36,212 nt of DNA from an uncultured Candidatus Saccharibacteria bacterium (GCA_964360975.1 CAYHYY010000004.1:1-36212), one strand, 5' to 3'; shown: positions 4,503-36,212, counted from the stretch's first letter. Program-made: numbers and translations. Notes: generated by a model from the sequence alone, not told the origin.

Positions 4503-6215
4503 CTATTTGACCCCGAACGCCTGCAGGCCCTGCTCATAGGTCAAGACCGATACCCCTGATTGCGCAACCGCATTCATCATTTGCCCGAACGTAATCGATG
4601 GCGTGTAGTACGCATCGTCTCCGGTATTCGCTATCGTATGGAAGACAATCACTTCCCATTTATTGCTCGACTGCCCTTCTGCAATCCATGAAGCGATATC
4701 CGCGACAGTCGTCGTATTCTTTACCTGCCTAACTTTTATGTCGTACGGGAACGCGCCTTGCGGATTGTCGCCAACCTCAAACGTTCGTGCGGACGTGTAA
4801 CCTGAACTTTGCGCATTCCCAATTAATGCCGCGTTGTATGCGCCGAACGGCCACGAGATGCTCTTTATGGTGAGTCCGAGTGCCTCAAGCAATGTCTTCG
4901 AGTTTGCTATCTGCTCAGCTGCTTGCGCCGGGGACAGCGCTACGAGATTCGTATCGTTGTTCATGGCGTGAGAGACTATTTCCCAGCCGCTCGCTTGAAG
5001 CGCTTGCACTTCGGCACTCGTCATGACTCCCGGTTGACCGAGGTCACCGACAGGGATTGATGCCGACCCCTTAAAGCCGTGGACGTCCATGAATGGTTTT
5101 GCGAGCGAGTACACACTGCTTTCTCCATCATCAAACATGATAGTAACCGCTGACCGCACTGTCGGCTCTATGGGGGTCACCGAAACATCATCAAAGTATG
5201 CCGTTCCGGAAGCGCTACCAAGCATTGGAATCACAAAGATGTAATCGATCGGTTTTTGCGTCGCAAGCGTGCCCGTATTGAACCCGATCCAACGCCAGTC
5301 AAAAGTGCCGTGGTTTGGAACAGTGTTCCAGTACCCCACCGTGCCGTCAGTGTAATAAATCTCCGCGTAGAGAGACGCGCCAAACCACGATCCTGATGCC
5401 ATCACTATGCTTTGTCCTTTCACGTACGCTCCAAGAAATACTGGCTTGACCGATGTTTGATGCAGGTCAAACCGTTGATATGCACCTGCAAACTGATTCG
5501 TAGCCGTATTCTGAAGACGAATACCCCATTGGCCAGTGTGCGGCATCGGATAGCGTGCGTACCCGCGCTGAAACGCTTGCCAGTCATAGGCGATTTCCGA
5601 GCCTCCAGATTCAATTTCGAATCCGCCATTATTGAGTACATCAGCGACTACAGGGAGCGTTACCTCACACGTTCCTTGCCCACCATCGCCATTAACTGTT
5701 GCCGTGTACAGCGTCGTTACTGATGGCGAGACTGCTACCGAACCTGCTGAAACTGGGAAGACACCCCCTAAACCGTTATTAAGTGAGACCGACGTTGCAT
5801 TGGTGCTCGTCCATGACAACGCCGAAGATCCCCCAAGGACTATTGCTGTTGGGTTGAGAGAAAGCGTGCATGATGGAGGTACCGAGGATGGTGGAGGTGG
5901 AGGAGGTGGCGGCGGTATGAGAACACACACCCCATTTGATAGCTCGTAGCCGCTCGGCACCGTGATTTGTCGACCGTCTAAATTTGGGCACACGTCGACT
6001 CGAGGAGGCCTGCGAGTACTGCAACGCGTCGGTGTCACTGCAACATCTGATTCCGATTCAAATTGCGAGCGTACGTTACAAACGTACGATACGGCTGCAT
6101 ACGCATTCAGCGAATCACCGTTCGTCACAACCGAGTGTCCGAAATCAATTGAAAACCATGCAACAAATGCAAACGCAACGAGAAAGAACGTGGAACCTAA
6201 TTTGTTTGACATCAT
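4503..6215 (-). CDS. secreted/anchored multidomain polysaccharide deacetylase (NodB domain)
   Basis: 570-aa ORF. In order: N-terminal anchor, poly-Pro linker, Ig-like segment, NGGFE-type carbohydrate-binding-like module, then a C-terminal NodB homology domain (VTIMFDDGESS, IVSHAMNND). Confidence 0.75.
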   Translation of the reverse strand: MMSNKLGSTFFLVAFAFVAWFSIDFGHSVVTNGDSLNAYAAVSYVCNVRSQFESESDVAVTPTRCSTRRPPRVDVCPNLDGRQITVPSGYELSNGVCVLIPPPPPPPPPSSVPPSCTLSLNPTAIVLGGSSALSWTSTNATSVSLNNGLGGVFPVSAGSVAVSPSVTTLYTATVNGDGGQGTCEVTLPVVADVLNNGGFEIESGGSEIAYDWQAFQRGYARYPMPHTGQWGIRLQNTATNQFAGAYQRFDLHQTSVKPVFLGAYVKGQSIVMASGSWFGASLYAEIYYTDGTVGYWNTVPNHGTFDWRWIGFNTGTLATQKPIDYIFVIPMLGSASGTAYFDDVSVTPIEPTVRSAVTIMFDDGESSVYSLAKPFMDVHGFKGSASIPVGDLGQPGVMTSAEVQALQASGWEIVSHAMNNDTNLVALSPAQAAEQIANSKTLLEALGLTIKSISWPFGAYNAALIGNAQSSGYTSARTFEVGDNPQGAFPYDIKVRQVKNTTTVADIASWIAEGQSSNKWEVIVFHTIANTGDDAYYTPSITFGQMMNAVAQSGVSVLTYEQGLQAFGVK

Positions 6216-11639: not shown

Positions 11640-11996
11640 GTGGCTAAGAAGTTATATTTCGGTGGGCTGGCATACAGCACTACCGACGACAGTTTACAAG
11701 CGGCTTGTGCCCCATTCGGGACCGTTGCGTCGGCAAAGGTCATCATGGATCGGGAGACTGGTCGTTCACGAGGTTTCGGATTCGTCGAAATGTCGAACGA
11801 TGATGAAGCAAGCGCAGTTGTTAAAGAGCTTGATGGCAAGGAAATTGATGGACGTGTGGTCCGCGTTTCCGAAGCTCGACCGCAGGAAAATGGCGGCGGA
11901 GGCGGAGGCGGTGGAGGCGGACGTGGAGGTTTTGGCGGAGGTCGCCGCGACTACGGTGGTGGTGGCGGAGGAGGCGGAGGCCGACAGTCTTGGTAA
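11640..11996 (+). CDS. RRM-domain RNA-binding protein with Gly/Arg-rich tail
   Basis: 118-aa ORF with GTG start. RNP2 LYFGGL and RNP1 RGFGFVEM. C-terminal tail has two poly-Gly runs separated by RGGFGGGRRDY. Confidence 0.85.
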   Translation: MAKKLYFGGLAYSTTDDSLQAACAPFGTVASAKVIMDRETGRSRGFGFVEMSNDDEASAVVKELDGKEIDGRVVRVSEARPQENGGGGGGGGGGRGGFGGGRRDYGGGGGGGGGRQSW

Positions 11997-15900: not shown

Positions 15901-15946
15901 GAGGTATAGAGGCCTCGCCTCTATACCTCTAGAGGCGAGGCCTCTA
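15901..15946. terminator. interlocking inverted repeats between convergent genes (putative U-tract-less terminator)
   Basis: Hairpin A pairs 15901-15913 with 15917-15929 (13 bp). Hairpin B pairs 15911-15923 with 15930-15942 (13 bp). The two are mutually exclusive. A third small hairpin pairs 15930-15936 with 15940-15946. Confidence 0.4.
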
Positions 15947-15995
15947 TAATATGTGACAGGTGCTGAAACAAACCGCGTGTATCTGGCTGGTGATT

Positions 15996-17751: not shown

Positions 17752-18624
17752 CTATAGCTCGAGTCGATAAATATCAAAGGAGTTTTTCCCCTCAAACATG
17801 TCTGAAGGGTTGGGCAGGTAGGTGCGTCTTTCCTGTATTTCCTTCGATGCGTCCTTAAGAAGCCGATGGAAGAGCTTGAACTCATCGTCGCACTCGTCGA
17901 AATTGATGACGTAGCGTCGCATCTGTGACCGCCCATCTTTATTTCTTCGCTTCTTACACTCCTGAAGAATAAAGCGCCTCACCGGCCGCTTAAACTCTGA
18001 GAGCACCGTATAGTAATTAAAAATTGCCTGCAAAATGTAGAGTGGTTTCTCTGCACCAAGCGCGCTGAAAAACTCTACAAATTTATGGTCGACGATGTCG
18101 ACGCCGTTCCGGTCAACGGGTGACTCAACCACAAGATCAGAAACCGCTTTAATCGGCAGTGGTAAACCCTCAACCTTAGCAACTGCAACAGTCTCTATCC
18201 CGAGCACTTTGTAGCGAGGAGCTCGCGCTAGGTAGAATCCGATCGCCTGCATATACTCCATTTCCATGGCGAGACGTTTCTCCCTTTTGGCACGTTCGCT
18301 CGTTGCCTTCCCAAAATCAATTTCAAAGTCTGACACCCGCTGCAAATACTCGAGTCCCAATGAAATGGCAGCGCCCTTCCCTAGTCCTCCATAGAAATGC
18401 TGAAGCGCTACGTGCCCCGCGCGCCCGATAAAGGAGGACGCACCCTGCGGCGTATCGTAGACCCCTTCAACATACCGCTTGTGCCACGCGAGTGGATTCC
18501 GTAAATATGACATCAATGAGGAGTAGCTCCAGTGCTTGATTGGGTACAGTCGGGTATGACTTGCCATGCACTCATCATACCGGTTACTCGTCGCAAGGAT
18601 TCCGTTAGCGACATCGTATGTCAC
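17752..18624 (-). CDS. PD-(D/E)XK nuclease family protein (RecB/Cas4-like, PDDEXK_1-type)
   Basis: 290-aa ORF with GTG 18624; an alternative ATG at 18567 lies 6 nt after a TATGAT box. N-terminal WSYSSLMSYLRNPLAW. Nuclease core AVSDLVV, GVDIVDHKF (D-x-K), LQAIFNYY. No Cas4-type 4-Cys cluster. Confidence 0.65.
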   Translation of the reverse strand: MTYDVANGILATSNRYDECMASHTRLYPIKHWSYSSLMSYLRNPLAWHKRYVEGVYDTPQGASSFIGRAGHVALQHFYGGLGKGAAISLGLEYLQRVSDFEIDFGKATSERAKREKRLAMEMEYMQAIGFYLARAPRYKVLGIETVAVAKVEGLPLPIKAVSDLVVESPVDRNGVDIVDHKFVEFFSALGAEKPLYILQAIFNYYTVLSEFKRPVRRFILQECKKRRNKDGRSQMRRYVINFDECDDEFKLFHRLLKDASKEIQERRTYLPNPSDMFEGKNSFDIYRLEL

Positions 18625-18663
18625 TCATACGAAGCAATGAGGGGGTATTCACTGCTTCCCAAA

Positions 18664-18853
18664 AATCCCTCCATATGTGGAGGGATTAAGCTTTGCTTCC
18701 CCGCCGCCGACACTACCATATATGGTAGTGTCGGGATTTACTGGCGGATGCCAGAATGCCCCGTCCCCTTTGGGGCGGGGTGTTCGATAGTCCGGGGGAC
18801 TGTCGAACGGGCGGCATGTTTTACTATCCATTAGCTATAGCTAACAGATAGTA
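18664..18853 (+). repeat. structured mosaic repeat, copy 1 (candidate ncRNA or MITE-like element)
   Basis: Chain of hairpins. 18664-18687 is a 10-bp stem; 18707-18734 is a perfect 14-bp-arm palindrome with a CCATATATGG centre; 18741-18754 is CTGGC-GGAT-GCCAG. P1 is 18759-18780, P2 is 18782-18808, followed by GGGCGGC at 18809-18815 and a terminal imperfect palindrome at 18822-18853. Near-identical sequence occurs inverted at 35998-36123. Confidence 0.65.
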
Positions 18854-18864
18854 TTTCCGCTACA

Positions 18865-18898: not shown

Positions 18899-19111
18899 AT
18901 GGTCAGAGAAGGGGATCCTGCAAAGTACGCTACTAGACGCGGTTCACGTGCTGGCAGAGCAGAGGGTAGAACTGAAGATAGGGCCGCGGATAGCAGGTGG
19001 CTTGAACAATATAATAGATTAAAAAATCTCGGTTTTTCTCGCAAAGTGGCAGCGTTCGGTGCTACTGCCGCGGTGTTTGGTTTCGACATCGCCAGAAAAC
19101 TGGACGCATGA
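18899..19111 (+). CDS. 70-aa hypothetical protein (Arg-rich N-half, hydrophobic C-half)
   Basis: Promoter immediately upstream and a hairpin plus U7 downstream. Sequence MVREGDPAKYATRRGSRAGRAEGR...VAAFGATAAVFGFDIARKLDA. No family recognised. Confidence 0.45.
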   Translation: MVREGDPAKYATRRGSRAGRAEGRTEDRAADSRWLEQYNRLKNLGFSRKVAAFGATAAVFGFDIARKLDA

Positions 19112-19141
19112 CGAAAGAACGCCTGCGTCGGGAGACATGAG

Positions 19142-19173
19142 ATTGAGAAGTTAATAGCTTCTCAATTTTTTTG
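19142..19173 (+). terminator. intrinsic terminator overlapping the rpoD stop codon
   Basis: ATTGAGAAG, 7-nt loop, CTTCTCAAT (9-bp stem), followed by U7. The rpoD stop (19151-19153) lies in the loop. Confidence 0.5.
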
Positions 19174-20425
19174 CTTTATTGTGCGTGCGGATTTTGTCGA
19201 GCGCCTTTGCCTCAATCTGACGAATGCGCTCGCGCGTCACGCCGAATTCCTGCCCCACTTCTTCGAGGGTGTGGTAGATACCATCCTCGAGACCGTGTCG
19301 CATCGCGAGAATTTTTCTCTCCTTTGGCGTCAGGTCATTTAATATTTCATGCAGTTGTTCAACCAATATTCGGTGCGCTGTATCCTGGTCCGGAGTCGGA
19401 AGGGATGAATCAGCTACGAAATCGCCACGCGCTGACGCGTCATCGTCGTCCGAAGCGCTAATGGGCGCCTCGAGTGAAAGGGTCTCCTGGTTTATCTGCT
19501 CGATCTGATAGATTTTTTCTACATCGACACCCATTTCTGACGCGATCTCCTCTGGCATCGGATCTCGGCCGAGGTCTTGCTCCAATCTGCGAACGACTTG
19601 TTTGTACTTCGCGATGGTCTCGACCATGTGGACCGGAATACGGATGGTGCGCGACTGGTCGGCGAGTGCACGCGTTATGGCTTGCCGTATCCACCAGGTG
19701 GCATACGTTGAAAACTTAAACCCTTTCAGGTGATCAAATTTATCGACTGCCTTGAAGAGCCCAAGATTCCCCTCCTGAATTAAGTCCAAGAGTGACAGAT
19801 CAGACGAGCGCGAAGCGTATTTTTTTGCAATTGAAACAACGAGACGTAAATTCGCGCGTGCCAATAGGTTCTTTGCTTCGTCATCACCTTCAAGAATGCG
19901 CTTCGCGAGGTCGCGCTCTTCCTGAGCGGTCAAAAGTGGATACTGCCCAATCTCACGCAAATACATTTGAATTGAGTCGTGCGCCGATCCCTCACCGCGG
20001 TATCCACCACGAAGCACAACCTCGTCAGGCACCTCCTCGAGCATGCCGCCAGATTCCAAAACGTCAACCCCCGATGACGACAGACGTTCATAGAGTTCTT
20101 CAAGGAAAAAAACATTTTCCTCGATGGTGGGAAATTCTTTCAATATTTCATTGTAGGTGACATACCCACGCTCCTTCCCTTTGAGAATGAGTCTACCTGC
20201 TTTCGCTTCAAGTTGCGCAAGCTTTTTTTTAGGAACCTTTGCGGGCGGCTTCGGAGGTTTGGCGTGTGCCACCTTCTTCACCTTCTTTGGTTTCTCTGAT
20301 GCTTTTGTCGCGGGTTTCTTGCCCTGTGTTGGCCCCTTTTTCTTGAGGTTCTTTTTAGGTTTTCGAACAGAACGCTTTGCTTTAGCGCCAACCGGCTTCC
20401 TCTTTTTCTTCTTTATTTTAGCCAT
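19151..20425 (-). CDS. rpoD: RNA polymerase primary sigma factor
   Basis: 424-aa ORF. Region 2 [13 protein letters not shown] and region 4.2 [24 protein letters not shown]. Lys-rich N-terminus. Confidence 0.95.
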
Positions 20426-30207: not shown

Positions 30208-30528
30208 TCAAATGACTGCAATAGCAACGCCAATTCCTACAGCAGTAAGTGCGAACATGATTCCTCTCCAACTCTTTCGAACTAACTTTAATAAAGAACC
30301 CCTTGTTGCCAATGTCTCGTCGGCAGCAACAAGCATGCGTATTTTGGTTTCTGTCAGTCGTCTGCCAGAGGTGTAAACGGTCCGGGGTCGTATCTGAAAT
30401 GATGAAGGATTCCATTCTTCTGCGCTCAGTGTCTCAATACGGCCGGATCCTAAATCTGCCATGGACTTTGCAAACGGCTCTCTCACGCGAAATCGCATCA
30501 TTCCGGATTCTTTTCCATTTTCACTCAT
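30208..30528 (-). CDS. 106-aa hypothetical tail-anchored membrane protein
   Basis: Has a consensus promoter immediately upstream. Single C-terminal TM helix (IMFALTAVGIGVAIAVI). Occupies the position where rimM normally sits. Confidence 0.5.
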   Translation of the reverse strand: MSENGKESGMMRFRVREPFAKSMADLGSGRIETLSAEEWNPSSFQIRPRTVYTSGRRLTETKIRMLVAADETLATRGSLLKLVRKSWRGIMFALTAVGIGVAIAVI

Positions 30529-30564: not shown

Positions 30565-30580
30565 CGTAATCCAATGGCCA

Positions 30581-30624
30581 TTAACGACCTCCGATGTCGT
30601 TATAACGACATCGGAGGTCGTTAA
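30581..30624. repeat. 44-nt perfect palindrome
   Basis: TTAACGACCTCCGATGTCGTTA | TAACGACATCGGAGGTCGTTAA, with 22-nt arms and no spacer. Lies 16 nt upstream of the -35 box at 30564. Confidence 0.9.
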
Positions 30625-30641
30625 TTTATTGATTGGTTGAG

Positions 30642-30730
30642 CGCAGGATGATGCGGACGCCAGAACTCCCCGCCCCTCTCTGGGGCGGGGAGTTCGATAG
30701 TCCGGGGGACTGTCGAACGGGCGACGTTTT
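30642..30730 (+). repeat. structured mosaic repeat, copy 2 (Y core only)
   Basis: CGCA-GGATGA-TGCG at 30642-30655. P1 at 30668-30690 is CCCCGCCCC-tctct-GGGGCGGGG. P2 at 30692-30718 is identical to copy 1. GGGCGAC at 30719-30725. Sense strand is opposite to the surrounding genes. Confidence 0.6.
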
Positions 30731-30736
30731 TACACT

Positions 30737-31157: not shown

Positions 31158-31348
31158 AACGGGATATTAAATTATAAGGCTTCGCCTTTCTGGCTTCCTC
31201 GGCTCGGGAAAGCAATTTAGGAAACTTGCATTCCTCTCGCTCCACGTCGCCAGCAGCGACAGCCGTCACAAATGTACCAAAAAATGAGCCGTCTTGCAAC
31301 GGGGTCATGCTGCCTTTGAGTCCTCTGCCGCTGAGGCCCCCCTGCCTT

Positions 31349-31714
31349 TTATACGGGAACTTCTTCCTGAGATGCACCAGCTTTCGCCTCAGCTGCTACA
31401 GGTGGCACCCCATCTTTTTTTGCTTCTTCTTCCTTCGCTGGAGGATGCTTCTTGCCGAGTACGTTTACCTTCTTTCCTTCTATGACGCCTTTCGTAATAA
31501 GAAGATTGTTGACTGTCCCCGAAATTTCAGCGCCCTTAGAAATCCAATGCTTTACAGAATCTGCATCGATAACCGTATGCTTGGTCTTTGGATTATACGA
31601 GCCAAGAACCTGGAGTGGATTCCCCGCCTTCGGGCTTCGCGCTTTCTCAAGGACAACGATGCGAAATGCCGGGTCGTTCTTACGTCCAGTGCGCTGAAAA
31701 CGAATAGTGAGCAT
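31349..31714 (-). CDS. rpsP: 30S ribosomal protein S16 with charged C-terminal extension
   Basis: ORF 31349-31978 trimmed to M89 (ATG 31714). MLTIRFQRTGRKNDPAFRIVV is the canonical S16 N-terminus; the sequence upstream of it is translated repeat DNA. Confidence 0.9.
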   Translation of the reverse strand: MLTIRFQRTGRKNDPAFRIVVLEKARSPKAGNPLQVLGSYNPKTKHTVIDADSVKHWISKGAEISGTVNNLLITKGVIEGKKVNVLGKKHPPAKEEEAKKDGVPPVAAEAKAGASQEEVPV

Positions 31715-31721
31715 GCGGCAA

Positions 31722-31750
31722 AGACTAACAGGAAAGCCACGAAACGTAAA
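31722..31750 (-). promoter_or_regulatory. putative rpsP promoter, leaderless geometry
   Basis: Minus strand: TTTACG (31750-31745), 17-nt spacer, TGtTAGTCT (-10 at 31727-31722), then 7 nt to ATG 31714. Confidence 0.45.
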
Positions 31751-31786
31751 GGGGGCGCTCATTTTCATTTGCTCAAAGCGTAACCC

Positions 31787-31953
31787 ATAGTAAAACAAGC
31801 CGCCCGTTCGACAGTCCCCCGGACTATCGAACACCCCGCCCCAAAGGGGACGGGGTGTTGAGCGGGCGGCACCGGGGTGTTTTTCTAGGCAGAGAATCGG
31901 CCTCCGCCGATACTGGTTTACCCTCAATCCCCGCGGCATAGCCGCGGGGCATT
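31787..31953 (-). repeat. structured mosaic repeat, copy 3 (X module + Y core)
   Basis: Read on the minus strand. The X module has hairpins at 31949-31929 (9 bp) and 31911-31896. The Y core has P1 at 31855-31834 and P2 at 31832-31806, enclosed by a 7-bp closing stem GCCGCCC/GGGCGGC (31870-31864 with 31805-31799). Confidence 0.6.
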
Positions 31954-31999
31954 GAAACCTAGTAATGCGGCGCATCACTTGACGAGGTATAGTATTCTC

Positions 32000-33925: not shown

Positions 33926-34739
33926 CGGCAGGTCTGGTGAGAAACATCACTTCTTCGTTTAAGAACAGCGGTTTCATGCGGGAAGCAAAGAGCGCACAGC
34001 AGTCCTCAGAAACAGCAATATCAGGACCATTTCCTTGAGCAATCACAGTCCCCTTTACAATAAATTCATGATCTTCGAAGAGGCGGGTCAGAGAATAGGA
34101 TTCATCGGGAAACCGTACCGAGTCAAATACTTCATACTCTTCATACACTTGACTATCAAGATCAGGGTCCACGGCAAACATTCCGAGGTTCCCCAGTACA
34201 GCCTTGACGGTCGCTACTGCAGTTCGGAATGTTTCTGGATTCTCGTGAGAACCGGCCTCGATACCAACTCGTATGGCATCATTTTTACGCCTGCCGTACA
34301 AATGTGAAACTGGCTTTCCAATCTGGACCCTATCGATGTTAGTGATGACATTTTGTATCGGAATCCCGTTCACTATCGCTGACGGAAATTCGGTACCGAG
34401 TACAATAATCATGGGTTCTGACTCCTGTGCTGTGCTGTGTATATCGATACCAACATCAAATTGCTCATAGATATCTTCGAGTTCTTTTACTCGTACGACT
34501 TCATACGTAACACTCGATGCTTCTTCGAGCGCAGCTCGGGCGAGACGATTCATATTTGTATTTACAAAGCGCGTTTGCCTTGCTTCTTCTTCCGATTCTG
34601 CACCGAAGTATCGTTCTGCCGCTCGCGCATTGTTTAAGACAAGAAAGATGGAGCCCCGCAGAAGGCGTTTGTTGGGTAGAATGTGCTCAATAACATATTC
34701 GACTGCCGCAAGCCCAGCAGGTTCATCGCCGTGTGTCAT
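33906..34739 (-). CDS. succinylglutamate desuccinylase/aspartoacylase (AstE/AspA) family zinc hydrolase, N-terminus apparently frameshifted
   Basis: HGDEPAG zinc-ligand motif lies at the very start of the ORF. The same frame stays open upstream to 34928 (…GEPGPTLGITV-MTHGDE) but has no ATG/GTG/TTG. A plausible ATG at 34956 is in another frame. Confidence 0.75.
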   Translation of the reverse strand: MTHGDEPAGLAAVEYVIEHILPNKRLLRGSIFLVLNNARAAERYFGAESEEEARQTRFVNTNMNRLARAALEEASSVTYEVVRVKELEDIYEQFDVGIDIHSTAQESEPMIIVLGTEFPSAIVNGIPIQNVITNIDRVQIGKPVSHLYGRRKNDAIRVGIEAGSHENPETFRTAVATVKAVLGNLGMFAVDPDLDSQVYEEYEVFDSVRFPDESYSLTRLFEDHEFIVKGTVIAQGNGPDIAVSEDCCALFASRMKPLFLNEEVMFLTRPAVRRDPE

Positions 34740-35093
34740 GACGGTGATACCTAACGTGGGACCGGGCTCGCCACCTTCGACTTTAAGAACGCCAGATACT
34801 CCGTTATAGATCGACTCTGATATGCCTTTGAAGGTTGCGCGAAGTTTTTCGAACCGTTCACTCCTTCGAAATGATTCAAAGGAGTTACTTGCCTCGCCAA
34901 AGATACCCCAGTCGCGGGGCTGCGTCGTTCATCAAAGATATTGATTCAAATGACATAGTTAATTAATTACATAGTAAATGCAAAAAAACAGTATTGAAAA
35001 GGGCCTACGCCCATAGATAGCGTGAATTAAAAATGAACGTCGTAGTCTTCTTGCGATACTCAGAAGTACTATGAAAGATGGGGATTGCTAATT

Positions 35094-35240
35094 TCATTTT
35101 TTTGTACCGAGACATTTTCCTACAAGGCATGAATGACATGCATCTTTGCCCATCTGCGTTACGACGCCGGGGCACCATTTGCACTTCGTGCAGTGGCACG
35201 CGTAGTCACCCGAAAATTCCATTCGGTGCAGGATCTCCAT
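35094..35240 (-). CDS. possible 48-aa Cys-rich zinc-ribbon-like mini-protein
   Basis: Hand-translated: MEILHRMEFSGDYACHCTKCKWCPGVVTQMGKDACHSCLVGKCLGTKK. Contains CxxC-x11-CxxC plus 3 more Cys. The ATG lies 2 nt after the upstream ORF's stop. Confidence 0.35.
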   Translation of the reverse strand: MEILHRMEFSGDYACHCTKCKWCPGVVTQMGKDACHSCLVGKCLGTKK

Positions 35241-35242
35241 TG

Positions 35243-35413
35243 CTACTTGCCAGGGGGTGGAGGTGGAGGCGGAGGCTCAGGTCTTGGAGTCACAGGGTCT
35301 CCGAAACCACCGTCACCAGGCTTGTTTGGATTTGGAGGTCTACGATCGAAGGCGAGAATGTCTCGATGAGAAGACGAATACGCATTACGTAGATTTTCAA
35401 TACTTCGCGACAT
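35243..35413 (-). CDS. possible 56-aa Pro-rich mini-protein
   Basis: Hand-translated: MSRSIENLRNAYSSSHRDILAFDRRPPNPNKPGDGGFGDPVTPRPEPPPPPPPPGK. A GATAAT box (35427-35422) lies 8 nt upstream of the ATG, the same geometry seen at other genes here. Confidence 0.35.
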   Translation of the reverse strand: MSRSIENLRNAYSSSHRDILAFDRRPPNPNKPGDGGFGDPVTPRPEPPPPPPPPGK

Positions 35414-35807
35414 AACAAAAAATTATCGGGATGGTAATGGAGCTATTACGGTTATGTGAAAATCGGACGAGTATTACCTCGTCCAATAGAAGAAAGAGAA
35501 AAGCGACGCGGATGCGCTTTGTGCAAACTGTAATGTCTGCGTCGCTGACATAAAGATAATAATAGCAAATGACGCACGTCCGTCAAGCTACCCGGCATGT
35601 GTGCACACGTCAGTACACATATCAGAGCAACACGCTGACATTTTGGTAATGCGGACTGTTCAAGATGTTAGTGAGATATTAAGGCGGCCGTACGCACGGT
35701 ATCTGTTAGTGGCCAGATACTTCGCATGGGTTATCAAGGTCCCGCTCCCTCCTTCCATTGACGTACCGACAAGCGCATTGTGGTTCAAAATTCATTTTTT
35801 ATACCGA

Positions 35808-36123
35808 TACTATCCATGAGCTATAGCTAATGGATAGTAAACTACCCCGCAGCAGAGCTGCGAGGCATTAAGAAAGCAGCTCTGCTGCGGGGACCGGGGT
35901 AGTTTTCTGGATATGGATGCGGCCTCCGCCGCTCTTTTTATCTGTCCATTCATCCCCAGAGCAGAGCTCTGGGGCATTCTGGACGGCCAGTAAAAACGCC
36001 GCCCGTTCGACAGTCCCCCGGACTGTCGAACTCCCCGCCCCAAAGGAGACGAGGCATTCTGGCATCCGCCAGTAAATCACGACACTACCATATATGGTAG
36101 TGCTGGCGTGGTAAGCAAAGCTT
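35808..36123 (-). repeat. structured mosaic repeat, copy 4 (Y + X + long hairpin + terminal palindrome)
   Basis: Read on the minus strand. The Y module spans 36123-35998 (palindrome 36106-36080, CTGGC-GGAT-GCCAG 36072-36059, P1 36054-36033, P2 36031-36005). It is followed by the X module (35978-35893), a 17-bp hairpin (35892-35845) and the terminal palindrome (35839-35808). Confidence 0.7.
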
Positions 36124-36180
36124 CCCCCACCAGCACTCGGAAAGAATGAACATGAGGTATATTCATTCTCTTCCTCGTTT

Positions 36181-36212
36181 GGCGTGGTAGTTTTCTGGAT
36201 ATGGATGCGGCC
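36181..36212 (-). repeat. partial further X module (copy 5), truncated by the window edge
   Basis: GGCGTGGTAGTTTTCTGGATATGGATGCGGCC closely matches 35895-35926, so the array continues beyond the window. Confidence 0.6.

What the first reader, a model, noticed from the sequence alone, without database searches (positions are those of the whole stretch)
35808..36212. Tandem mosaic array with a 147-nt module nested between TTTACT direct repeats, running off the window edge
Read on the minus strand, copy 4 is collinear with copy 1 from AAGCTTTGCTT to GGGCGGC-N-TTTTTACT and again from ATCCATTAGCTATAGCT onward. Between these, copy 4 carries about 147 extra nt: the X module plus a 17-bp hairpin. The junctions are flanked by the same hexamer TTTACT (plus-strand AGTAAA at 35989-35994 and 35836-35841). 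This pattern fits either a target-site duplication from a nested insertion or recombination at microhomology. X and Y both begin with the box CCAGAAUGCCCC followed by a hairpin, which suggests related units. Another X module starts at 36181, so the array extends beyond the window. The sequence around the 17-bp hairpin allows alternative pairings: AAACUACCCC can pair with GGGGUAGUUU, or CCCCG with CGGGG.
Basis: seen in the sequence. Interest (0 to 1): 0.65.

Follow-up and report, generated by a model that had tools for sequence, protein, structure and literature searches.

The report
Mobile hairpin-repeat mosaic, groundwater CPR bacterium
The end of this contig is a pile-up of small non-coding hairpin modules from a multi-copy repeat family in an ultra-small groundwater (Patescibacteria/CPR) bacterium, and the 147-nt "extra" block is a discrete mobile unit that also sits alone at another locus, always next to the short motif TTAC(T).

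Summary
Window 35808-36212 is a mosaic of GC-rich hairpin modules that also occur at 18584-18854, 30653-30735 and 31788-31959. Copy 4 equals copy 1 plus 147 nt lying between two TTTACT hexamers.

The block with its 3' hexamer (153 nt) is a discrete unit. A 100% identical copy lies alone between two unrelated genes on another Hainich-aquifer contig (L009), again as TTTACT|unit...TTTACT|. Assembly-graph contigs end exactly at both hexamers, with several unrelated flanks.

Four module types start right after TTAC(T), and four kinds of right end finish in TTTAC(T). There are no terminal inverted repeats. A conserved AATG sits at the 5' foot of CCCC...GGGG hairpins whose stems covary. Under the published IS608 guide/cleavage rule, AATG predicts TTnC.

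The best reading is a REP/BIME- or IS200/IS605-end-like family of non-autonomous elements, moved by a single-strand HUH (Y1) transposase that inserts 3' of TTAC. Each insertion recreates the target, which builds head-to-tail arrays, and recombination then shuffles them. Mobility is shown. The enzyme is inferred, because no transposase was found in the DNA available.

The family is absent from relatives at 71-76% RNase R identity. I rate it a new member of a known kind, of moderate interest.

The parts
35808..35839 (-). Module P: 32-nt near-perfect palindrome TACTATCCATNAGCTATAGCTNATGGATAGTA. It closes the array next to unique DNA and overlaps the junction hexamer.
   Evidence: (D10, I5). Also present at 18822-18853 and L002 340-371.
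35836..35841 (-). Junction hexamer TTTACT (AGTAAA on the plus strand). It is the 3' end of the nested unit and of the mini-unit.
   Evidence: Loose ends of Logan contigs diverge exactly here with many unrelated flanks.
35836..35988 (-). The nested 153-nt mobile unit: X left part, inverted/direct mini-unit doublet, and its own 3' TTTACT. On the minus strand it starts GGCCGTCCAGAATG and ends GGGGTAGTTTACT.
   Evidence: 100% identical to L009 474-627, where it is a solitary insertion. A 159-nt Logan contig spans exactly 35836-35994 at depth 31.5. The block is absent from copy 1.
35838..35869 (-). Mini-unit 'm' (REP-like, right-end-like): AATG + CCTCGCAGC/TCT/GCTGCGGGG + TAGTTTA(CT). It is the most abundant piece of the family.
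   Evidence: Depth 44-225 against 2-8 for unique flank. Flanks on both sides are unrelated. It was flagged as terminator-like.
35845..35892 (.). 17-bp perfect hairpin, formed by the mini-unit stem and an inverted partial copy of it. It is flanked by imperfect inverted repeats AGWAAACTACCCCG.
   Evidence: (I24).
35954..35982 (-). X left-end box and hairpin: CCAGAATG + CCCCAGAGC/TCT/GCTCTGGGG.
35989..35994 (-). Junction hexamer TTTACT. It is the 3' end of module Y and the insertion point of the nested unit.
   Evidence: Loose ends at 35993-35995 show at least six different flanks, all keeping TTACT.
35989..36070 (-). Module Y: GGCGGATGCCAGAATG + hairpin Y1 (36033-36054) + hairpin Y2 (36005-36031) + GGGCGGCGTTTTTACT.
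   Evidence: (I1, I3, D2). Paralogues lie at 18743-18825, 30653-30735 and 31788-31855.
36071..36106 (-). Module W: palindrome CACTACCATATATGGTAGTG (36083-36102) followed by TCGTGATTTACT. Its TTTACT lies at 36071-36076.
   Evidence: (D13). Also at 18708-18742.
36105..36189 (-). Module V: 76-nt unit with hairpin GAATGAATATACCTCATGTTCATTC, bounded by 9-nt direct repeats GGCGTGGTA (36105-36113 and 36181-36189).
   Evidence: The same unit is inserted at a different place in L002, bounded by TACCACG. Joints 35897->36110 appear in Logan contigs.
36183..36212 (-). Second copy of the 3' part of an X-type module (GGCCGCATCCATATCCAGAAAACTACC), cut by the window edge.
   Evidence: (D5, 97%).
18584..18854 (+). 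Array copy 1: modules T, a V-like module, W, Y and P, with TTTACT at 18737 and 18820 and no nested unit.
   Evidence: The independent assembly L011 is identical.
30653..30735 (+). Array copy 2: a solitary, more diverged Y module (88%) ending GTTTTTAC, with no TTACT on its left.
   Evidence: Identical in L013, L014 and L018.
31788..31959 (-). Array copy 3 (172 nt): module Z (TTACTA|GGTTTCAATG + CCCCGCGGC hairpin), linker modules, then Y hairpins ending GTTTTACTA. It lies between the divergent genes rpsP (31349-31714, -) and rnr (start 32000, +).
   Evidence: In relative L006 this intergenic region is only 54 nt and has no array.

Best explanation
The region is one array of a lineage-specific, multi-copy family of small non-coding hairpin modules in a groundwater Patescibacteria (CPR) genome.

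The basic building block is a REP-like unit: a conserved AATG, then a 9-bp CCYC...GGGG hairpin, then, in the commonest form, TAGT-TTAC-T. Larger units combine a left part (TTAC|T, 14-16 nt, AATG, hairpin) with such a right part.

These units are non-autonomous mobile elements. The 153-nt block in the finding is one of them. It inserted immediately 3' of the TTTACT that ends module Y.

Because each unit carries its own TTTACT at its 3' end, every insertion recreates the target. Further units can land there, which gives co-oriented head-to-tail arrays with TTTACT at each joint. Homologous or illegitimate recombination between shared sub-modules then shuffles the arrays into mosaics.

The most likely engine is a single-strand HUH/Y1 enzyme (IS200/IS605-TnpA-like or RAYT-like) encoded elsewhere in the genome. 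It would recognise the hairpins and find TTAC through the AATG 'guide'.

Shown: the family, its boundaries, its copy number, its mobility (identical copies at unrelated loci) and the TTAC(T) junction rule. Inferred: the enzyme class, the single-strand mechanism, and the absence of a true target duplication.
For: 1. Discrete unit. L009 468-627 is 100% identical to window 35836-35995 and is a solitary insertion between a DUF1573 gene and a 141-aa gene: GGATTTTACT|GGCCG...GTAGTTTACT|CATCATG. A Logan contig of exactly 159 nt covers 35836-35994 at depth 31.5.
2. Junction rule. Contigs diverge into unrelated sequence exactly outside TTACT at the left edge of X (at least 6 flanks), Z (at least 7 contigs at 31965), Y (18738) and T (18584). 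Right ends of Y, W, m and U all finish in TTTAC(T).
3. The right TTTACT belongs to the element. Solitary mini-units keep it but have no TTACT on their left. Copy 2 is the same.
4. There are no terminal inverted repeats on X or Y. Hairpins are subterminal at both ends. Spacing (cleavage site to hairpin foot) is 15-17 nt on the left and 8 nt on the right, against 19 and 10 nt in IS608.
5. The IS608 pairing rule is C-4:G2, C-3:G1, C-1:G4. Applied to the conserved box AATG, it predicts TTnC, and TTAC is observed. A random 4-mer box would fit about 1 time in 64.
6. All six TTTACT sites inside the arrays are co-oriented with the modules.
7. Hairpin stems covary between module types: 97.5% of cells paired, 4 of 9 pairs compensatory, 0 of 500 shuffles as good.
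8. Copy number. The mini-unit has depth 44-225 against 2-8 for unique flank; the 159-nt unit is about 3-5 times the unique depth.
9. The family is absent from about 56 kb of syntenic or nearby DNA in relatives at 71-76% RNase R identity.
10. Published IS200/IS605 features match: no inverted repeats, no target duplication, insertion 3' of a tetra- or pentanucleotide, and hairpin-only derivatives (PATEs) moved in trans. REPs are defined as a tetranucleotide guide 5' of a GC-footed hairpin.
Against: - No Y1/HUH gene, or any transposase, was found in the window or any fetched locus. Only about 36 kb plus small contigs of this genome were reachable.
- The guide rule fails for the right ends of W and Y. 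The four bases 5' of their hairpins predict GCnC/GGnC and CCnA/T, not TTAC.
- The most abundant piece (mini-unit) lacks a left TTAC, so it is not a complete left-plus-right element.
- Several blocks are bounded by 9-30 nt repeats, which recombination explains more simply.
- Arrays lie on both strands (two on +, two on -) in a window whose GC skew never changes sign. That gives no sign of the lagging-strand bias typical of IS608/ISDra2.
- No empty or filled polymorphism was seen in eight sequencing runs or six other assemblies.
- A 6-bp duplication at a very strongly preferred target cannot be formally excluded for the 153-nt unit.
Confidence: 0.55

Rival explanations
1. These are classical MITEs moved by a DDE transposase that strongly prefers TTTACT and duplicates it, giving a 6-bp target-site duplication.
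For: The 153-nt unit has TTTACT on both sides at both fully sequenced loci. The hairpin doublet has imperfect inverted ends AGWAAACTACCCCG, and nesting is common for MITEs.
Against: - X and Y have no terminal inverted repeats.
- The hexamer is the same at every junction and for four different left-end types.
- The right-hand TTTACT is retained by solitary mini-units and by copy 2 with no matching left copy.
- In L002, Z has TTCACTG on its left while the array ends in TTTTACTA on its right.
- All units in an array share one orientation.
Confidence: 0.15
2. There is no transposition. The mosaics arise only by recombination, slippage or gene conversion between pre-existing repeats, and TTTACT is merely microhomology.
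For: Several blocks are bounded by longer direct repeats: GGCGTGGTA at 36105/36181, 27-30 nt at 35895/36183, and a 23-nt ATTGAGRGTAAAYCAGTATCGGC repeat in L002. Hybrid hairpins appear among the loose ends.
Against: This cannot place an identical 153-nt unit alone between unrelated genes (L009). It also cannot explain why repeat-to-unique boundaries at many loci fall exactly at TTACT. Recombination is a secondary shuffling process, not the origin.
Confidence: 0.07
3. The modules are primarily functional RNA or DNA signals (intrinsic terminators, mRNA-stabilising hairpins or protein-binding sites, as proposed for REP/BIME). Selection maintains them, and mobility is incidental. This can be true alongside the best explanation.
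For: The hairpins are GC-rich and followed by T-rich tails. Seven terminator-like hits were found where 1.4 are expected. The 3' flanks of mini-units are T-rich. Stems covary. Copies 1-3 are fixed across five samples.
Against: Positions do not fit terminators. Arrays 1, 2 and 3 and the L002 array start next to the 5' end of a divergent gene and read away from it, and copy 3 lies upstream of rpsP. No Rfam family matches. No RNA run was available. Covariation between paralogous families is also expected for transposase-recognised hairpins.
Confidence: 0.2
4. Each module is a cassette exchanged by a site-specific (tyrosine or serine) recombinase that acts on a TTTACT core, in the manner of integrons or dif modules.
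For: The same short core sits at each joint, and the units are co-oriented.
Against: There are no inverted recombinase-binding arms around the core. No recombinase gene lies nearby. Insertions occur at many unrelated loci rather than at one attachment site.
Confidence: 0.03

Closest known systems
IS200/IS605-family ends and their hairpin-only derivatives (PATEs); reference element IS608 of Helicobacter pylori
   Same: - No terminal inverted repeats, and subterminal hairpins at both ends.
- Insertion immediately 3' of a short specific sequence, and literally the same tetranucleotide, TTAC.
- The right end carries its own cleavage sequence a few nt 3' of its hairpin.
- A 4-nt box at the 5' foot of the hairpin fits the published guide/cleavage pairing rule.
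   Different: - No tnpA or tnpB was found.
- The right-end cleavage sequence equals the target (TTAC). In IS608 it is TCAA, so here each insertion regenerates a target and arrays build up.
- Spacing is shorter: 15-17 and 8 nt against 19 and 10 nt.
- Units are only 34-160 nt long.
- The W and Y right ends do not obey the guide rule.
- No strand bias is visible.
REP / BIME / REPIN sequences with RAYT (TnpA-REP) of Proteobacteria
   Same: - High-copy intergenic GC-footed hairpins with a conserved tetranucleotide at the 5' foot.
- Compensatory stem variation.
- Clustering into mosaic arrays with variable linkers.
- An inverted doublet (the 17-bp hairpin) resembling a REPIN.
- Cleavage at a C|T step is compatible with TTAC|T.
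- In vitro, RAYT strand transfer assembles variable tandem BIMEs.
   Different: - The box is AATG, not GTAG. GTAG occurs here on the 3' side of the hairpin.
- Most units are co-oriented rather than alternating.
- There is a precise TTAC(T) junction rule, whereas RAYT has loose CT specificity.
- The host is a CPR bacterium.
- The defining RAYT gene flanked by REPs was not found.
MITEs such as Correia/NEMIS (Neisseria), and the nested small dispersed repeats of cyanobacteria (from my own knowledge)
   Same: Short non-coding elements in multiple copies, inserted in intergenic DNA, sometimes nested inside one another and close to gene starts.
   Different: Those elements have terminal inverted repeats and a true target duplication (TA for Correia). 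Here X and Y have no inverted ends, and the repeated hexamer is carried by the element.
BOX elements of Streptococcus pneumoniae (from my own knowledge)
   Same: Modular intergenic repeats (boxA, a variable number of boxB, boxC) that form stable hairpins, with no known transposase.
   Different: BOX has a fixed A-B-C grammar and no sequence-specific junction motif. Here there are many module types, joined at TTAC(T).

Membership tests
IS200/IS605-derived non-autonomous element (PATE) | No terminal inverted repeats | tested here: met
   The ends of X (GGCCGTCCAG... / ...GGGGTAGTTTACT) and of Y are not inverted copies of each other. Only the internal hairpin doublet has inverted arms.
IS200/IS605-derived non-autonomous element (PATE) | Subterminal imperfect hairpins at the left and right ends | tested here: met
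   The X hairpin starts 14 nt from the left edge. The mini-unit hairpin ends 9 nt before the right edge (8 nt before the putative cut after TTAC). Y has hairpins Y1 and Y2.
IS200/IS605-derived non-autonomous element (PATE) | Insertion 3' of a specific tetra- or pentanucleotide without target duplication | tested here: inconclusive
   TTAC(T) precedes the left end in every independent flank of X, Y, Z and T. The right TTTACT is carried by the element. No empty site was obtained, so absence of duplication is argued, not shown.
IS200/IS605-derived non-autonomous element (PATE) | Guide tetranucleotide 5' of the hairpin foot pairs with the cleavage site (IS608 rule) | tested here: inconclusive
   AATG predicts TTnC, matching TTAC, for the X, Y1 and Z left ends and the mini-unit right end. 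The rule is not met for the W and Y2 right ends.
IS200/IS605-derived non-autonomous element (PATE) | A cognate Y1 (HUH) TnpA, or a full-length parent IS, in the same genome | not testable with these tools
   Only the 36-kb window and a few short contigs of this organism were reachable, and none encodes a transposase.
IS200/IS605-derived non-autonomous element (PATE) | Orientation bias relative to replication (top strand on the lagging-strand template) | tested here: not met
   Two arrays lie on the plus strand and two on the minus strand, in a window whose GC skew does not change sign. With n = 4 this is weak evidence.
REP / BIME with RAYT | High-copy intergenic hairpin with a conserved tetranucleotide 5' of a GC-rich foot | tested here: met
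   AATG plus CCYC...GGGG stems. Depth is 13-45 times the unique flank. All copies are intergenic.
REP / BIME with RAYT | REPs in alternating orientation within BIMEs | tested here: not met
   Modules are mostly co-oriented. Only the 17-bp hairpin is an inverted doublet.
REP / BIME with RAYT | A single-copy RAYT gene flanked by the REPs (REPtron) | not testable with these tools
   The rest of the genome is unavailable. The array runs off the contig.
DDE-type MITE | Terminal inverted repeats plus a target-site duplication whose sequence follows the target | tested here: not met
   X and Y have no inverted ends. The hexamer is invariant and is present on the right without a left partner in solitary units.
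Known RNA families (Rfam 15) | Match to a curated covariance model | tested here: not met
   No hit at gathering score in the whole window. In 34600-36212 only chance-level hits, with E of 0.09 or more.

The most novel reading that the evidence does not exclude
A self-propagating single-strand (HUH/Y1) transposition system in a CPR bacterium. Minimal units of roughly 34-160 nt carry both the guide (AATG) and a copy of their own target (TTAC), so each insertion makes the next landing site and head-to-tail arrays grow. This would be the first REP/RAYT- or IS200/IS605-type repeat system described in Patescibacteria. It may be domesticated, because arrays sit at gene starts and are fixed in the population.
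Probability: 0.3. Interest if true: 0.6.

Novelty: new member of a known kind. Interest (0 to 1): 0.42.

Why it matters
From my own knowledge, CPR/Patescibacteria have very small, streamlined genomes and are generally thought to be poor in repeats and mobile DNA. Here a repeat family reaches tens of copies in the metagenome and occupies a noticeable share of the scarce intergenic space. It sits within a few bases of start codons (4 nt in L009). It has moved recently, because copies at unrelated loci are 100% identical.

There is also a practical consequence. Independent assemblies of this population break inside the arrays, so this family fragments the MAGs.

If the HUH/Y1 reading is right, the family offers very small natural substrates in which guide, hairpin and target sit within about 34 nt. 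That would be useful for studying target choice in single-strand transposition and for comparison with how REPs spread.

My two full-text searches found no paper describing REP- or MITE-type repeats in Patescibacteria/CPR.

Tried and rejected
- **Periodic or known-RNA readings.** TRF finds no periodic array, so this is not CRISPR- or TIGR-like. Rfam finds nothing, and there are no tRNAs in the window.
- **Collection scans with the Y2 hairpin.** These gave one Firmicutes MAG (L001) and one unrelated metagenome contig (L003) sharing only the 25-nt hairpin. I treat these as coincidental hairpins: a 10-bp arm plus loop has about 15 free positions. The other metagenome hit was L002.
- **Viral contigs.** Three scans with different module patterns gave zero hits.
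- **Spurious ORFs as handles on more copies.** The 77-aa ORF found one cluster, which led to L009. A 1416-aa chimeric six-frame query found nothing.
- **Empty-site alignment of the rpsP-rnr spacer against relative L006.** It is reliable only for the last ~45 nt before rpsP. My first impression of a TACTA empty site was wrong and is withdrawn.
- **Presence/absence variants.** There are no joints that skip the unit in eight runs. Contigs from five other samples are collinear and 99.7-100% identical at copies 1-3.
- **Other checks.** The exact-match look-up for S16 found nothing. No RNA runs were available.
- **Relatives.** L006, L007, L008 and L010 have no member of the family. This gives no information on ancestral states at the junctions.

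Full report
**1. What the window is**

The 36-kb window is a housekeeping segment of roughly 50% GC. It carries an ABC transporter, cell-envelope sugar enzymes, hisS, bacA, dnaG, rpoD, rpoC, rpoB, trmD, khpA, rpsP and rnr.

The same genes occur with about 100% identity on contigs from 0.1-0.2 um filter fractions of Hainich aquifer wells H51 and H52. The best named relatives of its RNase R are 'Patescibacteria group bacterium' (71%) and Candidatus Kaiserbacteria (65%). The organism is therefore an ultra-small CPR bacterium.

No transposase, recombinase or reverse transcriptase is encoded in the window.

**2.

Read on the minus strand, 36123->35989 is collinear with 18688-18825 (90.6%), and 35841->35807 is collinear with 18820-18854 (91%). 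In between, copy 4 has exactly 147 extra nt (35842-35988), bracketed by TTTACT at 35989-35994 and 35836-35841.

The 17-bp hairpin, the CCAGAATGCC boxes and the repeat of 35895-35924 at 36183-36212 are all present. The stretch is a dense chain of hairpins, with z = -9.9 and -11.95 against shuffles.

It is not a periodic tandem repeat. It is a head-to-tail mosaic of different modules. On the minus strand the order is:
- part of an X-type module
- V (76 nt, bounded by GGCGTGGTA)
- W (palindrome, then GATTTACT)
- Y (two hairpins, then GTTTTTACT)
- the nested unit (X left part, hairpin doublet, then GTAGTTTACT)
- palindrome P
- unique DNA

Related arrays lie at 18584-18854 (+), 30653-30735 (+) and 31788-31959 (-). 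All are intergenic.

**3. The extra block is a discrete, recently mobile unit**

A spurious 77-aa ORF over the block led, through its protein cluster, to contig L009 from well H51. L009 468-627 is 100% identical to window 35836-35995.

In L009 the unit stands alone in the spacer between a DUF1573-domain gene and a 141-aa gene, with the sequence ...GTGGATTTTACT|GGCCGTCC...GGGGTAGTTTACT|CATCATG. It ends 4 nt before the next start codon.

In the Logan assemblies of eight groundwater runs, contigs carrying the unit diverge into unrelated sequence just outside both hexamers:
- At least six different flanks on the X side keep TTACT.
- Many different flanks on the other side begin after TTTACT.
- One contig is exactly the 159 nt from hexamer to hexamer, at depth 31.5, where unique flanks are about 5-7.

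The nested-insertion reading is therefore supported.

**4. A junction rule for the whole family**

The same behaviour is seen for other modules.
- Z is preceded by TTACT in the window and in at least seven other contigs whose sequence differs beyond it. L002 has TTCACT instead.
- Y is preceded by TTTACT twice in the window and by a different flank plus TTACT in another contig.
- Module T (from 18584) starts after TTACT with three different flanks.

On the right side, the Y, W, mini-unit and 'U' ends all finish in TTTAC(T), whether the next sequence is another module or unique DNA.

Six of the 19 TTTACT/AGTAAA sites in the window lie in the roughly 0.95 kb of arrays, all in module orientation.

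**5. The smallest and commonest piece**

Depth peaks at 35838-35869: 44-225, against 2-8 for the adjacent unique DNA. These are metagenome depths, so other carriers may contribute.

This mini-unit reads AATG-CCTCGCAGC-TCT-GCTGCGGGG-TAGTTTA(CT). Its 5' flanks are unrelated to each other and lack TTACT. Its 3' flanks are T-rich.

That makes it a REPIN-like doublet flanked by AGWAAACTACCCCG.

The X, Y1 and Z hairpins are paralogues of the same design (AATG, CCCC stem, GGGG). Across nine units, 97.5% of stem positions pair, four of nine pairs show compensatory changes, and no shuffle out of 500 does as well (I trimmed three loops and one 3-nt insert before aligning).

A scan for strict units finds five in the window, two or three in L002, two in L009, and none in about 56 kb from relatives.

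**6. Mechanism**

The anatomy has these features:
- no terminal inverted repeats
- subterminal hairpins
- a sequence-specific site immediately 5' of the left end
- a copy of that site a few nt 3' of the right-end hairpin
- strict co-orientation within arrays

This is the anatomy of IS200/IS605-type single-strand transposition and of its hairpin-only derivatives. It is also close to REP/BIME.

In IS608 the target is TTAC. It lies 19 nt 5' of the left hairpin. The right cleavage site lies 10 nt 3' of the right hairpin. Both are read by a 4-nt guide at the 5' foot of the hairpin, with pairs C-4:G2, C-3:G1 and C-1:G4.

Here the box at the 5' foot is AATG, which by that rule specifies TTnC, and the junction is TTAC|T. 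The distances are 15-17 nt on the left and 8 nt on the right. This agreement was not built in, but it constrains only three bases (about 1 in 64 by chance).

Because the right end carries the same TTAC as the target, each insertion regenerates a landing site. That explains the head-to-tail arrays.

The right-hand TTTACT is not a duplication of the target. Solitary mini-units and copy 2 have it without a left partner.

Recombination clearly acts as well. V is bounded by 9-nt repeats and sits at a different place in L002. A 27-30-nt repeat brackets the V-W-Y-X block. Hybrid hairpins are seen in other contigs.

**7. Weaknesses**

- The enzyme is not in hand.
- The guide rule fails for the W and Y right ends.
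- The mini-unit is only 'half' an element.
- The four arrays lie on both strands of a segment with uniform GC skew.
- No empty site or polymorphism was found. Copies 1-3 are identical in five other samples, and no joint that skips the unit appears in eight runs.
- My attempt to read an empty site from relative L006 was unreliable and is withdrawn. L006 shows only that the rpsP-rnr spacer is 54 nt there, against 285 nt here.
- A DDE transposase with an extreme target preference remains possible. Recombination alone, or a site-specific recombinase, is unlikely.
- A cellular role (terminator, RNA stability or protein binding) is compatible with the hairpin-plus-T-tail shape, but it fits the positions poorly. 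Four arrays start beside the 5' end of a divergent gene and read away from it.

**8. Comparison and novelty**

The family works most like IS200/IS605 ends/PATEs and REP/BIME. I do not file it as a member of either, because the defining protein could not be tested and some features are not met (orientation bias; alternating REPs; the GTAG box).

The family is lineage-specific. The Y2 hairpin pattern hit only one unrelated genome among 185,579 species representatives, and one related contig (L002) in the metagenome collection. Relatives at 71-76% RNase R identity lack it.

My two literature searches found no paper describing REP- or MITE-type repeats in Patescibacteria/CPR.

**Verdict.** This is a real feature and a new member of a known kind (small hairpin-based non-autonomous repeats). 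Interest is moderate, and would be higher if the self-regenerating-target Y1 mechanism is confirmed.

Noticed in passing
window 30580-30625: A perfect 46-nt palindrome (ATTAACGACCTCCGATGTCGTTA | TAACGACATCGGAGGTCGTTAAT) lies upstream of the 106-aa gene 30208-30528 (-). It looks like an operator. It is conserved in the other assemblies of the population.
   Followed up: no
window 34740-35807: About 1.07 kb has no convincing gene, in an otherwise compact contig. Only small Pro- or Gly-rich ORFs are present (35243-35413 on the minus strand, 35133-35369 on the plus strand), and they have no Pfam match. A promoter-like site lies at 35586-35559 (-).
   Followed up: partly
L001 326-350 and L003 2605-2629: The 25-nt Y2 hairpin TTCGACAGTCCGGGGGACTGTCGAA is identical in an Acutalibacteraceae MAG, where it sits beside a tRNA gene and a duplicated tRNA 3' end, and in an unrelated metagenome contig. 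I judged this a coincidence between hairpins, but did not test it.
   Followed up: partly
L002 1-130 and L007 5064-5108: L002 holds two tandem 66-nt modules with the hairpin GAGATTCTCTTGACGGTACTCCGTCCTAGAGAATC. An 84% similar hairpin sits upstream of rpoB in the relative GCA_019752595.1. It is the only module-like match found in any relative.
   Followed up: no
window 31226-31783 (+), 31349-31978 (-), 18532-18834 (+), 35810-36043 (-): These mechanical ORFs are spurious or over-extended because they run through the arrays. The real rpsP is 31349-31714 (-), and rnr starts at GTG 32000. The PD-(D/E)XK nuclease ORF start at 18624 overlaps repeat module T. In L011 the gene is called shorter, at 253 aa.
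   Followed up: partly
window 18624, 30528 and 32000; L002 823: All four arrays with known neighbours have their 5' side within about 30-125 nt of the start of a divergently oriented gene and read away from it. In L009 the unit ends 4 nt before a start codon. This may reflect target exposure or an effect on promoters.
   Followed up: no
window 15905-15948: A 19-nt perfect inverted repeat (TATAGAGGCCTCGCCTCTA / TAGAGGCGAGGCCTCTATA) lies between the exonuclease-like gene and bacA. It is probably a bidirectional terminator.
   Followed up: no
window 5886-5921, 11891-11992 and 35252-35296: GGNGGN (glycine-rich) repeats are shared between two ORFs and the non-coding region near the array (D1).
   Followed up: no
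window 18899-19111 (+): An unannotated 70-aa ORF, followed by a hairpin and T-run at about 19140-19175, is called as a gene in independent assemblies (L011, L012). It has no Pfam match.
   Followed up: partly
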